Source of the DNA: Escherichia coli
Lineage (GTDB): Bacteria; Pseudomonadota; Gammaproteobacteria; Enterobacterales; Enterobacteriaceae
Length of the DNA: 64,000 nt
Assembly: GCF_003018255.1 (NCBI RefSeq)
Contig: NZ_CP027440.1
Direction: 5' to 3' (one strand)
Shown here: in pieces, positions 18,188 through 20,071 of the stretch
How positions within the stretch are numbered: position 1 is the first letter of the stretch
Layout: each line of letters starts with the position of its first letter
Made by a program: the position numbers and the translations under genes
Notes under the pieces: model-generated
Database searches by the model: none
What the model saw: only the letters and a program-made list of their open reading frames with translations
What the model was told of the DNA's origin: nothing

Positions 18188-20071
18188 ATGATTAAAAAAG
18201 CTTCGCTGCTGACGGCGTGTTCTGTCACAGCCTTTTCCGCTTGGGCACAGGATACCAGCCCGGATACTCTCGTTGTTACTGCTAACCGTTTTCAGCAGCC
18301 AGTAAATACTGTCCTTGCACCTACTGATATTGTTACCCGTGAGGATATTCAACGCTGGCAGTCGAAAGACCTCAACGATGTTATGAGTCATCTCCCCGGT
18401 GTAAATATCTCTCAAACTGGTGGAATGGGGACGAGTTCTTCTCTTTATGTTCGAGGCACTGAATCGCGCCATGTTTTAGTGTTGATTGACGGTGTGCCGA
18501 TGGCCCGTGCCGGTATCGACAATGCAATTGATATTAGCCAGTTCCCGGTATCACTTGTACAGCGTGTTGAATATATTCGTGGGCCGCGTTCTGCCGTTTA
18601 TGGTTCTGGTGCCATCGGAGGTGTGGTGAACATTATTACAATGAGTAATGATGAGAAAGCTCAGATCAACGCAGGAATGGGTACAAATGGTTATCAAGCC
18701 TATGATGGGGTAATAAATAAACGTTTTGGCGATACGATGGTAACAGCAGCAGGTGCTTACCAGACGACCAAAGGTTTTAACATTCAGCCTGGCTCACCAT
18801 ACAGTGGTGATAGCGATCGCGATGGATATCGCAACAAACTTTTCTGGGGGGGGCTGCAGCATAAGTTTAACGATAACTTCTCGGGGTTCTTCCGTGGTTA
18901 CAGCTACACAGCTAATAATGATTACGACCAGGGCTCGATGTATGGTTCTGCTACTGGCAACGAAGAAGCTCAGAATTACAACCAGTCCTGGGATACTGGC
19001 CTACGCTATAACTCCGGCATCTATTCGTCTCAGTTAATTGCTAACTATCAACGACTCAAGAATTATAACTACACAAATAATCTTGGTCGTTATGCGGGAG
19101 ATGCCACCCTGGATGACATGGAACAGCGTTATATTCAGTGGGGTAATAGCATTGAGGTAGGGCATGGTGCAATTAGCGGCGGGATCGATTGGAAACAGGA
19201 AAAACTGACGTCCAGCAGCATTACAAAATCAGATGATTACGAACGCGATACCACCGGGTTATACCTGACTGGACAGCAACAGATTTCCAATGTGACTTTG
19301 GAAGCTTCTGGCCGAGAAGATCATGATGAACAGTTTGGCTGGCATGGTACCTGGCAGACAGCTGCTGGCTGGGAGTTTATTGATGGCTACCAGGCAACAC
19401 TTTCTTACGGTACCAGTTTTCTTTCGCCTTCTCTTGGACAGCAATACGGGGCTGCTCGCTTTGCTTCAATTTATGGTCCTGGTATTGCAGCCAACCCAAA
19501 TTTGAAGCCAGAAGAATCTAAACAGTGGGAGATTGGAATTGAGGGGGTAACTGGGACTCTGGATTGGCGGCTCTCAGGATATCGTTATGAAATTCAGAAC
19601 CTGATTGATTATAAAAGCATAAATAATGTCAACCAGTACATTAATGTGAAATCAGCCACGATTAAAGGGCTGGAATGGACGGGAAATATTACAACCGGTC
19701 CTGTTGAACATCGCTTGACGTTACAATATGTTGACCCGCGCGATGATGAAACAGATAAAGTGCTGTACCGTCGGGCAAAACAGCAGGTTAAGTACGAGTT
19801 GACTGGACAAGCTTATGGTTTCGAATGGGACGTATCTTACCAATATATAGGTCAACGATACGACAACGCTTATGACGAGACCTCTGGCTCATCACATACA
19901 GTTAAATTAGGCGGTGTGAGCTTGTGGGATCTTGCGGTTGCGTATCCGGTCACCTCTCATCTAACAGTTCGTGGTAAAATAGCCAACCTGTTCGACAAAG
20001 ATTATGAGACAGTCTATGGCTACCAAACTGCAGGACGGGAATACACCTTGTCTGGCAGCTACACCTTCTGA
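18188..20071 (+). CDS. btuB: TonB-dependent vitamin B12 / colicin E / phage BF23 outer membrane receptor BtuB, divergent mosaic allele (627 aa)
   Basis: ORF 18143..20071; start [35 protein letters not shown] (signal peptide plus TonB box DTLVVTA); C-terminus ...[17 protein letters not shown] with terminal Phe; central region differs substantially from the recalled K-12 BtuB. Confidence 0.9.
   Translation: [627 protein letters not shown]

What the first reader, a model, noticed from the sequence alone, without database searches (positions are those of the whole stretch)
18188..20071. Mosaic btuB allele: K-12-like ends with a highly divergent central receptor region
The leader riboswitch, signal peptide, TonB box and last ~45 residues match K-12 BtuB as I recall it. 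The central ~500 residues (plug and most barrel strands/loops) differ extensively, for example ...[57 protein letters not shown]... where I recall K-12 as ...[57 protein letters not shown]..., and the protein is 627 rather than 614 aa. Conserved flanks with a divergent core suggest replacement by recombination. BtuB is the receptor for E-group colicins and phage BF23, so the allele could change susceptibility while keeping B12 uptake.
Basis: partly seen in the sequence, partly recalled or inferred. Interest (0 to 1): 0.5.

Follow-up and report, generated by a model that had tools for sequence, protein, structure and literature searches.

The report
Mosaic vitamin B12 receptor allele
This E. 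coli strain keeps the K-12-like ends of the vitamin B12 receptor gene btuB, but a 1.6-kb middle section has been replaced by recombination with a version only about 50% identical. That version is one of four interchangeable "cassettes" in E. coli and its relatives, and it matters because this protein is the docking site for colicins and many phages.

Summary
btuB (18188-20071, 627 aa) is 96-99% identical in DNA to K-12 over its first 105 and last 159 bases. The 1.62-kb core (18293-19912) is only 57% identical in DNA and 50% in protein.

The gene is still a bona fide btuB:
- It sits at the trmA-btuB-murI locus behind an intact cobalamin riboswitch.
- It passes both NCBIfam BtuB equivalog cut-offs.
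- The TonB box is identical to K-12, and the predicted plug-and-barrel fold matches solved BtuB (TM 0.93).
- It is the only btuB copy in its carriers.

It is not a one-off. Among 5426 complete E. coli genomes, 283 (5.2%) carry this core at ≥99.6% identity, on K-12-like, B2-like and other flanking haplotypes. It has therefore spread by homologous recombination; in this window the imported tract is about 17388-19963. Two further divergent cores share the same boundaries, so the locus behaves like a cassette.

Relatives of this core (82-88% aa) are the BtuB of many Citrobacter, Kluyvera and Klebsiella and of many Salmonella strains. No close donor exists in the collections searched.

Whether colicin or phage susceptibility changes is untested. 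One paper implies that a carrier, E2348/69, stays colicin-sensitive.

I found no paper in the held library describing these allele classes.

The parts
18188..20071 (+). btuB coding sequence, 627 aa, allele class 'B' (protein identical to WP_000591386.1)
   Evidence: ORF. RefSeq annotation of the identical SCU-171 locus. NCBIfam NF007926 scores 1042 bits (cut-off 836) and TIGR01779 scores 665 bits (cut-off 599.7).
18188..18292 (+). E. coli-type 5' end: signal peptide (aa 1-20), TonB box DTLVVTA (aa 26-32), up to ANRF
   Evidence: 96.2% nt identical to K-12, against 74-88% to the B-type genes of other genera. The protein is identical to K-12. The left junction lies between 18274 and 18293.
18293..19912 (+). 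Replaced core: most of the plug, 20 or so barrel strands and extracellular loops L1-L10
   Evidence: 57% nt and 50% aa identical to K-12. Identity by region: plug 64-68%, non-loop barrel 52-56%, loops 44% (L2 19%, L3 27%, L5 27%, L8 32%), with 17 of 19 gap columns in loops. GC is 45.8% and GC3 41.7%, against 51-52% GC in the flanks.
19451..19492 (+). Insertions in extracellular loop L7 (AARFAS and PGIAA, aa 422-427 and 431-435), 11 extra residues in total; they account for most of the extra length
   Evidence: Pairwise alignment, and loop mapping with the loop limits given in PMC7360065.
19913..20071 (+). E. coli-type 3' end: last 52 residues, including loop L11 and the C-terminal strand; overlaps the murI start
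   Evidence: 98.7% nt identical to K-12 and identical in protein. This segment is also unusually conserved across genera (84-93% nt, against 75-81% for murI).
17933..18122 (+). Cobalamin riboswitch aptamer in the btuB leader
   Evidence: Rfam RF00174, 87.8 bits, full length. The leader is 99.5% identical to K-12.
17388..19963 (.). Inferred recombination tract that brought the B core into this strain's lineage (5' part of trmA, leader, core)
   Evidence: Strain 2020N21-246-1 carries a different core on the same flanks. Against it, the window is identical at all variable sites from 15897 to 17385, and after 19963 it differs only at two sites near the end of murI (20865, 20869). It differs from 17388 to 17688, where the window and E2348/69 carry K-12-like SNPs rather than B2-like ones.
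16719..17819 (-). trmA, upstream neighbour; it contains the left end of the imported tract
20016..20873 (+). murI, downstream neighbour; its start overlaps the last 56 bases of btuB
   Evidence: RefSeq annotation of the identical locus.

Best explanation
This is a functional btuB allele, encoding the TonB-dependent outer-membrane vitamin B12 transporter, whose 1.62-kb core was replaced by homologous recombination.

**Junctions.** The crossovers lie in the two DNA segments of the gene that stay similar between allele lineages. One is the signal-peptide and TonB-box region. The other is the last 160 bases or so, which overlap murI. Recombination homogenises these ends within the species. The cores are too divergent to recombine with each other, so they persist as discrete cassettes.

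**Distribution.** E. coli holds at least four cores:
- A, the K-12 type, about 91% of complete genomes.
- B, this one, 5.2%.
- C, 1.7%.
- D, about 1.7%.

The B core belongs to a BtuB lineage shared with Citrobacter, Kluyvera, some Klebsiella and many Salmonella. It moves between E. coli phylogroups on tracts of a few kb, and in this window the tract is about 17388-19963.

**Function.** The transport machinery is kept: riboswitch control, TonB box, the plug-barrel ionic-lock pair and the fold. The surface loops and the plug apices, which B12, E-group colicins and BF23-like phages touch, are largely different.

**What is shown and what is inferred.** Shown: the mosaic structure, the population distribution, spread by recombination, and membership of the BtuB family. 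Inferred: that it still imports B12, and that enemies exploiting the receptor (phages, colicins) favour rare surfaces and so keep several cores in circulation.
For: **Mosaic structure**
- Sharp junctions, with ends matching K-12 at synonymous sites.
- All four E. coli classes share the same boundaries.

**Population distribution**
- Counts are 283 B, 90 C, about 92 D and about 4958 A among 5426 genomes.
- The B core is ≥99.6% identical in all carriers, whereas the A core varies down to 95%.
- The B core sits on K-12-identical flanks (13C1065T, SLK172), on B2-type flanks (E2348/69, this window) and on a third type (F2_81).
- SNP patterns delimit the imported tract.

**Same locus across the family**
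- The locus is trmA-riboswitch-btuB-murI in the ~50 Enterobacteriaceae and Providencia loci fetched, apart from two second-copy loci.
- The core tree mixes genera, for example Salmonella Saintpaul with a Citrobacter and C. amalonaticus with Salmonella.
- Salmonella shows the same dimorphism with Salmonella-specific ends.

**Family membership and fold**
- Both BtuB equivalog models are passed.
- The riboswitch is intact.
- R34 and D334, the ionic-lock pair, are invariant in 57 sequences.
- The AlphaFold model has pTM 0.85 and TM 0.93 to 1NQH and 2GSK.
- B-carrying genomes have no second btuB.

**Altered surface**
- Loops are 44% identical and carry nearly all the indels.
- Only 4 of 16 plug residues and 2 of 8 L3 residues that contact B12 in K-12 are conserved.
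- The colicin E9 R-domain site overlaps the B12 site (PMC8561637).
Against: - No donor is identified. The nearest non-Escherichia core is about 80% nt identical, the same as the flanking housekeeping genes, so a recent import from a sequenced species is excluded and the direction of transfer is unknown.
- Divergence is not confined to the surface. Membrane strands are 52-56% identical and the plug 64-68%, so most of the difference is lineage age rather than targeted loop selection.
- No selection test was run.
- PMC10924462 lists eight E. coli strains including E2348/69 and names two others as the only resistant ones. A B-type strain therefore appears sensitive to E-group colicins, which weakens colicin escape as the driver.
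- The low GC3 of the B core (41.7%), against 48-55% in its relatives, is unexplained.
Confidence: 0.72

Rival explanations
1. Ancient trans-species balanced polymorphism. The A and B core lineages already coexisted in the common ancestor of Escherichia, Salmonella and Citrobacter and were kept in each species by vertical descent. Recombination only homogenised the ends. On this view the B core was never imported into Escherichia.
For: - E. coli B against Salmonella or Citrobacter B cores is 75-80% nt identical, which matches the flanking trmA and murI (79-84%).
- E. coli A against Salmonella A is 86% aa identical.
- Both species hold both lineages with species-specific ends.
- The A/B split (50% aa) is far deeper than the species split.
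- Low diversity within B is what a class held at 5% frequency would show.
Against: - The core tree is incongruent with species relationships at many nodes, which shows real transfer between genera.
- A divergent Escherichia lineage (L005) has flanks 93-95% identical but a B core 98% identical, which implies transfer within the genus.
- The GC3 of the B core (41.7%) is well below E. coli flanks and below the A core.
- B diversity is ≤0.4% across phylogroups.
Confidence: 0.25
2. Corrinoid-specificity variants. The cores differ mainly because they prefer different cobamides (B12 analogues) available in different gut niches, as the multiple BtuB paralogues of Bacteroides do. Enemies are not the driver.
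For: - Residues that contact cobalamin in K-12 BtuB are poorly conserved: 4 of 16 in the plug apices, 2 of 8 in L3 and 0 of 3 aromatic residues in L2.
- The plug, which is not exposed to most phages, is also 32-36% different.
Against: - No data exist on the ligand preference of any Enterobacteriaceae BtuB class.
- L11 contacts and several others are fully conserved.
- All classes pass the same equivalog model and keep the same riboswitch.
- All four cores sit at the same trmA-btuB-murI locus in one species and are exchanged there by recombination, which fits receptor variation as well as it fits niche specialisation.
Confidence: 0.12
3. Neutral introgression. The divergent cores are chance imports that persist at low frequency without any selective advantage. 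They are discrete only because sequence divergence blocks crossovers inside them.
For: - Divergence is spread over the whole core, not just the loops.
- Frequencies are low, between 1.7% and 5.2%.
- No selection test was performed.
Against: - The same pattern recurs in Salmonella and Citrobacter.
- The B core has reached several unrelated phylogroups while staying ≥99.6% identical, which suggests it spreads faster than neutral drift would allow.
- Loops carry the indels and the lowest identity.
- By established knowledge, other phage and colicin receptor genes show similar patterns.
Confidence: 0.12
4. Artefact or paralogue: a misassembly, contamination or second btuB-like gene mistaken for an allele.
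For: None found.
Against: - The identical sequence occurs in 283 complete genomes, always as a single copy at the btuB locus between trmA and murI.
- The reading frame is intact.
Confidence: 0.01

Closest known systems
E. coli K-12 BtuB (PDB 1NQE, 1NQH, 2GSK, 1UJW, 2YSU)
   Same: - Same locus, riboswitch, signal peptide and TonB box, and the same last 52 residues.
- Same predicted 22-strand barrel with plug (TM 0.93).
- Passes the same NCBIfam equivalog models.
   Different: - The core is only 50% identical in protein.
- Loops L2, L3, L5 and L8 are below 35% identity, and L7 carries 11 extra residues.
- Most K-12 B12-contact residues in the plug apices are substituted.
- No structure of this type has been solved.
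BtuB of Citrobacter (freundii complex, portucalensis, sp. MGH106), Kluyvera, Klebsiella spallanzanii and many Salmonella enterica (salamae, diarizonae, serovars Lubbock, Mbandaka, Saintpaul)
   Same: - Same core lineage, 82-88% aa identical.
- Lengths are 618-629 aa, and the nearest relatives share the 627-aa length.
- Same locus.
   Different: - The ends of the window gene are E. coli-specific (96-99% nt to K-12), not those of these genera (74-92%).
- The core is about 20-25% diverged in DNA from all of them and has lower GC3.
Mosaic, recombining alleles of other enterobacterial surface receptor genes such as ompC, fhuA and ompA, and Neisseria FrpB/FetA (established knowledge; FrpB variation in PMC3574120)
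   Same: The gene encodes a surface receptor used by phages or bacteriocins. It exists as discrete divergent alleles that are exchanged by homologous recombination through conserved flanks.
   Different: Here almost the whole protein is exchanged as one block, including the plug and the membrane strands, rather than loop-sized segments. The same classes are also shared across genera.

Membership tests
BtuB (TonB-dependent vitamin B12 transporter) | Scores above the curated cut-off of the BtuB equivalog models | tested here: met
   NF007926 scores 1042 against a cut-off of 836. TIGR01779 scores 665 against 599.7.
BtuB (TonB-dependent vitamin B12 transporter) | Plug domain plus 22-strand TonB-dependent receptor barrel | tested here: met
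   The cluster representative carries Pfam PF07715 and PF00593. The AlphaFold2 model has pTM 0.85, and Foldseek gives TM 0.92-0.94 to solved BtuB. This is a prediction, not a solved structure.
BtuB (TonB-dependent vitamin B12 transporter) | N-terminal TonB box and the plug-barrel ionic-lock pair | tested here: met
   DTLVVTA is identical to K-12. R34 and D334 are invariant in 57 aligned BtuB sequences. The identity of the lock pair, R14-D316 in mature numbering, comes from established knowledge.
BtuB (TonB-dependent vitamin B12 transporter) | Cobalamin riboswitch in the leader and the conserved position between trmA and murI | tested here: met
   RF00174 scores 87.8 bits at 17933-18122. The locus is syntenic in E. 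coli and in the ~50 Enterobacteriaceae and Providencia loci fetched, apart from two second-copy loci.
BtuB (TonB-dependent vitamin B12 transporter) | Calcium-binding aspartate cage in loops L2 and L3 | tested here: inconclusive
   In the pairwise alignment D193, D195 and D230 are kept. D179 becomes N and D241 becomes N, with new Asp residues at the positions of Q191 and N228. Which five Asp residues form the cage is recalled from memory; PMC7360065 says only that there are five aspartates.
BtuB (TonB-dependent vitamin B12 transporter) | Binds and transports cobalamin | not testable with these tools
   Inferred from three facts: it is the only btuB copy in carriers, it sits behind a B12 riboswitch, and the same lineage is the only btuB found at this locus in the Citrobacter and Kluyvera genomes fetched.
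Receptor for E-group colicins and BF23/T5-like phages | Supports binding and killing by colicins E1-E9 and A and by phage BF23 | not testable with these tools
   The surface loops are strongly altered. The text of PMC10924462 implies that E2348/69, a carrier, is sensitive to S. sonnei E colicins, but BtuB dependence was not shown in that strain.
Mosaic allele made by homologous recombination | Abrupt change of identity at defined junctions, including synonymous sites | tested here: met
   Identity is 96-99% nt in the ends and 57% in the core, with junctions at about 18274-18293 and 19909-19912.
Mosaic allele made by homologous recombination | The same allele occurs on unrelated flanking haplotypes, with delimitable tracts | tested here: met
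Mosaic allele made by homologous recombination | An identifiable donor lineage | tested here: not met
   The best non-Escherichia match is 88% aa and about 80% nt identical.
Trans-species balanced polymorphism | The same allele classes occur in several species with species-specific flanks, and the class split is older than the species split | tested here: met
   E. coli and Salmonella both hold A and B with their own ends. A against B is 50% aa identical, whereas identity within a class between species is 82-88%.
Trans-species balanced polymorphism | Within each class the gene tree follows the species tree (no transfer) | tested here: not met
   The neighbour-joining tree of cores mixes genera at shallow nodes. 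L005 has a B core at 98% identity but flanks at 93-95%.

The most novel reading that the evidence does not exclude
btuB is a family-wide, multi-allelic "receptor cassette" locus. Several very old core lineages (about 50% aa apart) are kept in circulation across Escherichia, Salmonella, Citrobacter, Klebsiella and others by frequency-dependent selection from phages and bacteriocins, or by differing cobamide preferences. They are swapped through two conserved crossover sites.

If so, about 9% of E. coli and large parts of Salmonella present a BtuB surface that K-12-based colicins, phages and receptor predictors were never tested on.
Probability: 0.35. Interest if true: 0.65.

Novelty: new member of a known kind. 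Interest (0 to 1): 0.45.

Why it matters
BtuB is the model receptor for E-group colicins and a very common phage receptor. It is being used to design colicin and phage therapeutics and to predict phage host range.

Recent papers treat it as highly conserved. PMC12094771 reports 98.4% of E. coli genomes at ≥95% identity. PMC10972627 reports more than 90% identity among non-typhoidal Salmonella.

Here about 9% of complete E. coli genomes carry cores only 50-79% identical in protein to K-12. The carriers include the reference EPEC strain E2348/69. All solved structures are of the K-12 type.

If the classes differ in phage, colicin or cobamide recognition, this would be a ready-made natural system for studying receptor specificity. 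It would also be a hidden variable in host-range data.

Tried and rejected
**Donor search**
- A protein search of 5.8 billion sequences and a scan of 100,044 species genomes found nothing closer than 88% aa outside Escherichia.

**Literature**
- The papers read in detail were no more help.
- A residue-level list of colicin R-domain contacts on BtuB was not available in the papers read, so colicin contacts could not be mapped.

**Explanations rejected**
- Artefact or paralogue: rejected because the allele is single-copy at the native locus in 283 genomes.
- Mobile-element carriage: rejected because the flanks are syntenic housekeeping genes and none of the 283 copies is on a plasmid.
- Divergence confined to the loops: rejected because strands and plug are also 32-48% different.

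**Not attempted**
- dN/dS tests, formal recombination or dating models, and complex modelling with colicin or phage proteins.
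Full report
**What is there**

The window is an ordinary E. coli chromosomal stretch running from yijO through the arg genes, oxyR, sthA, fabR, trmA, btuB, murI, rrnB, rpoBC and the thi operon. Its feature coordinates coincide with those of strain SCU-171, and the btuB region checked is identical. btuB is the ORF 18188-20071 (+) and encodes 627 aa. Upstream lies the cobalamin riboswitch at 17933-18122 (Rfam RF00174, 87.8 bits, full length). Downstream, murI starts at 20016 inside the end of btuB.

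**Checking the observation**

A whole-region alignment with K-12 shows 95-100% identity in 60-base windows up to about 18298. Identity is 30-70% from 18299 to 19885, and 97-100% again from 19946.

In protein, residues 1-35 and the last 52 residues are identical to K-12. The core between them is 50% identical, and overall identity is 57%. A codon-based comparison gives 96.2% nt for the first 105 bases, 56.8% for the core and 98.7% for the last 156 bases.

A multiple alignment places the left junction between 18274 and 18293 and the right junction at about 19909-19912. The only adjustments are that the identical C-terminus is 52 residues rather than about 45, and the divergent part is about 540 residues.

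**It is still BtuB**

- The protein passes both NCBIfam BtuB equivalog models: NF007926 at 1042 bits (cut-off 836) and TIGR01779 at 665 bits (cut-off 599.7).
- The TonB box is unchanged.
- R34 and D334, the plug-barrel ionic lock, are invariant in a 57-sequence alignment.
- An AlphaFold2 model (pTM 0.85) superposes on solved BtuB structures with TM 0.92-0.94.
- Carriers have no second btuB.
- Only the K-12 type has solved structures.

**How common it is**

Among 5426 complete E. coli genomes, 283 carry this core at ≥99.6% identity, always on the chromosome. I call this class B.

A third core, class C (612 aa, for example strain M37H), is in 90 genomes. A fourth, class D (614 aa, for example 2020N21-246-1; about 74.5% nt to K-12), is in about 92 genomes, and a further 69 are about 90% identical to it. 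The K-12 type, class A, accounts for about 4958 genomes and itself varies down to 95% identity.

All four classes share the same left and right boundaries, so the locus has a cassette-like structure.

**Spread within E. coli**

The B core sits on several different backgrounds:
- Flanks identical to K-12 in 13C1065T and SLK172, where divergence begins inside trmA and ends in murI or murB.
- B2-type flanks carrying the manD/MFS and M20/citrate-symporter inserts in E2348/69, and B2-like flanks with the manD/MFS island only in this window.
- A third type in F2_81.

Strain 2020N21-246-1 has the same flanks as the window but the D core. The two are identical at every variable site from 15897 to 17385. 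After 19963 they differ only at two sites near the end of murI. Between 17388 and 17688 the window carries K-12-like SNPs, as E2348/69 does. The B core therefore entered this lineage on a tract of about 2.6 kb, roughly 17388-19963.

**Where the core comes from**

The core is 82-88% identical in protein to BtuB of the following groups:
- many Salmonella enterica (salamae, diarizonae and several serovars);
- Citrobacter;
- Kluyvera;
- Klebsiella spallanzanii;
- Raoultella sp.;
- Phytobacter.

Apart from two second-copy loci, the roughly 50 Enterobacteriaceae and Providencia loci fetched have the same trmA-riboswitch-btuB-murI arrangement.

Core DNA identity to these genera is 75-80%, about the same as the flanking trmA and murI (79-84%). 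There is no recent donor among sequenced species.

The K-12 lineage is likewise shared with Salmonella (86% aa), Enterobacter, Scandinavium, Pseudescherichia and Cronobacter (73-78%).

A neighbour-joining tree of the cores shows two deep clades. Each contains several of the same genera, and shallow nodes mix genera. Salmonella has the same A/B dimorphism with Salmonella-specific ends.

A divergent Escherichia lineage (L005) has flanks 93-95% identical to the window but a B core 98% identical. Another (L015) carries yet another 618-aa allele.

The picture is a mix of old allele lineages and repeated transfer. Which of these brought B into E. coli cannot be decided here. The low GC3 of the B core (41.7%) and of the D core (37.8%), against 48-55% in B-type relatives, is unexplained.

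**What changed in the protein**

I used the loop limits given in PMC7360065. The resulting identities to K-12 are in the table below.

| Region | Identity to K-12 |
|---|---|
| Plug | 64-68% |
| Non-loop barrel | 52-56% |
| All loops | 44% |
| L2 | 19% |
| L3 | 27% |
| L5 | 27% |
| L8 | 32% |

Loops contain 17 of the 19 gap columns, including 11 extra residues in L7.

Of the residues reported to contact cobalamin in K-12, 4 of 16 in the plug apices and 2 of 8 in L3 are conserved. The L11 contacts lie in the identical 3' end and are all kept. The colicin E9 R-domain site overlaps the B12 site (PMC8561637).

The surface that ligands, colicins and phages see is therefore substantially different. 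The divergence is nevertheless spread over the whole core, not confined to loops.

**Function and mechanism**

Shown:
- The gene is a mosaic made by homologous recombination.
- It belongs to the BtuB family and keeps the regulatory and energy-coupling elements.

Inferred:
- It still imports B12. It is the sole copy, it is riboswitch-controlled, and the same lineage is the only btuB found at this locus in the Citrobacter and Kluyvera genomes fetched.
- The several cores are kept in circulation by agents that exploit the receptor.

The junctions coincide with the two segments conserved between lineages. The 3' end is 84-93% nt identical across genera, more than murI itself. Homologous crossovers are expected in exactly such places.

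The only experimental hint cuts against colicin escape. PMC10924462 lists eight E. coli strains, including E2348/69, and names two others as the only ones resistant to S. sonnei E colicins. The figure itself could not be read, and BtuB dependence was not tested in that strain.

**Comparison with what is known**

The gene is annotated as btuB in RefSeq, so the sequence itself is not new. I found no paper in the held library that describes these allele classes or their cassette structure. Two recent papers describe BtuB as highly conserved. The general phenomenon of mosaic receptor alleles exchanged by recombination is well known for other outer-membrane proteins.

**Verdict**

The recombination interpretation is right. 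The "unusual allele" framing should be replaced by "one of several widely shared cassettes". The functional consequence remains open. Interest is moderate.

Noticed in passing
L065 (E. coli HS-01) 2889-4713: A btuB that is B-type up to the position equivalent to window ~18637 and then A-type. This is an intragenic A/B recombinant, and it is annotated as frameshifted.
   Followed up: partly
L004 4309-7489; L062 14889-16771; hit H146: Natural btuB knock-outs: a D-type gene split by an IS3-family element (GPEC1258), a frameshifted B-type gene (SLK172), and a K-12-type gene split by ISApl1 (EC416).
   Followed up: no
window 18293-19912; L067 core: The B and D cores have unusually low third-position GC (41.7% and 37.8%). 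The K-12 core has 51%, B-type genes of other genera have 48-55%, and the L015 allele has 67%. This is unexplained.
   Followed up: partly
window 22225-22284 and 22825-23100: A 60-base block inside the 16S rRNA gene is only 83% identical to K-12 rrsB. The 16S-23S spacer around tRNA-Glu also differs in length.
   Followed up: no
window 9725-13037: A manD plus MFS-transporter island lies between argH and oxyR. It is absent from K-12 and present in B2-type strains such as UTI89 and E2348/69.
   Followed up: no
L015 (Escherichia sp. MOD1-EC7003) 2396-4252: The flanks are 96.5% identical to the window, but btuB is yet another 618-aa allele (75% nt in the core). In this case the 5' and 3' ends of the gene are also foreign.
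   Followed up: partly
L048 and L055: Enterobacter sp. ENT03 and Yokenella regensburgei carry a second btuB-like gene (55-58% identity) at a locus without trmA or murI; Yokenella also has the syntenic copy (L050).
   Followed up: no
P0123 versus P0090 (Salmonella enterica): Salmonella shows the same two-lineage btuB dimorphism. The Salmonella-specific first 38 or so residues and the last 30 or so are identical, and the core is mostly 30-60% identical in 30-residue blocks.
   Followed up: partly
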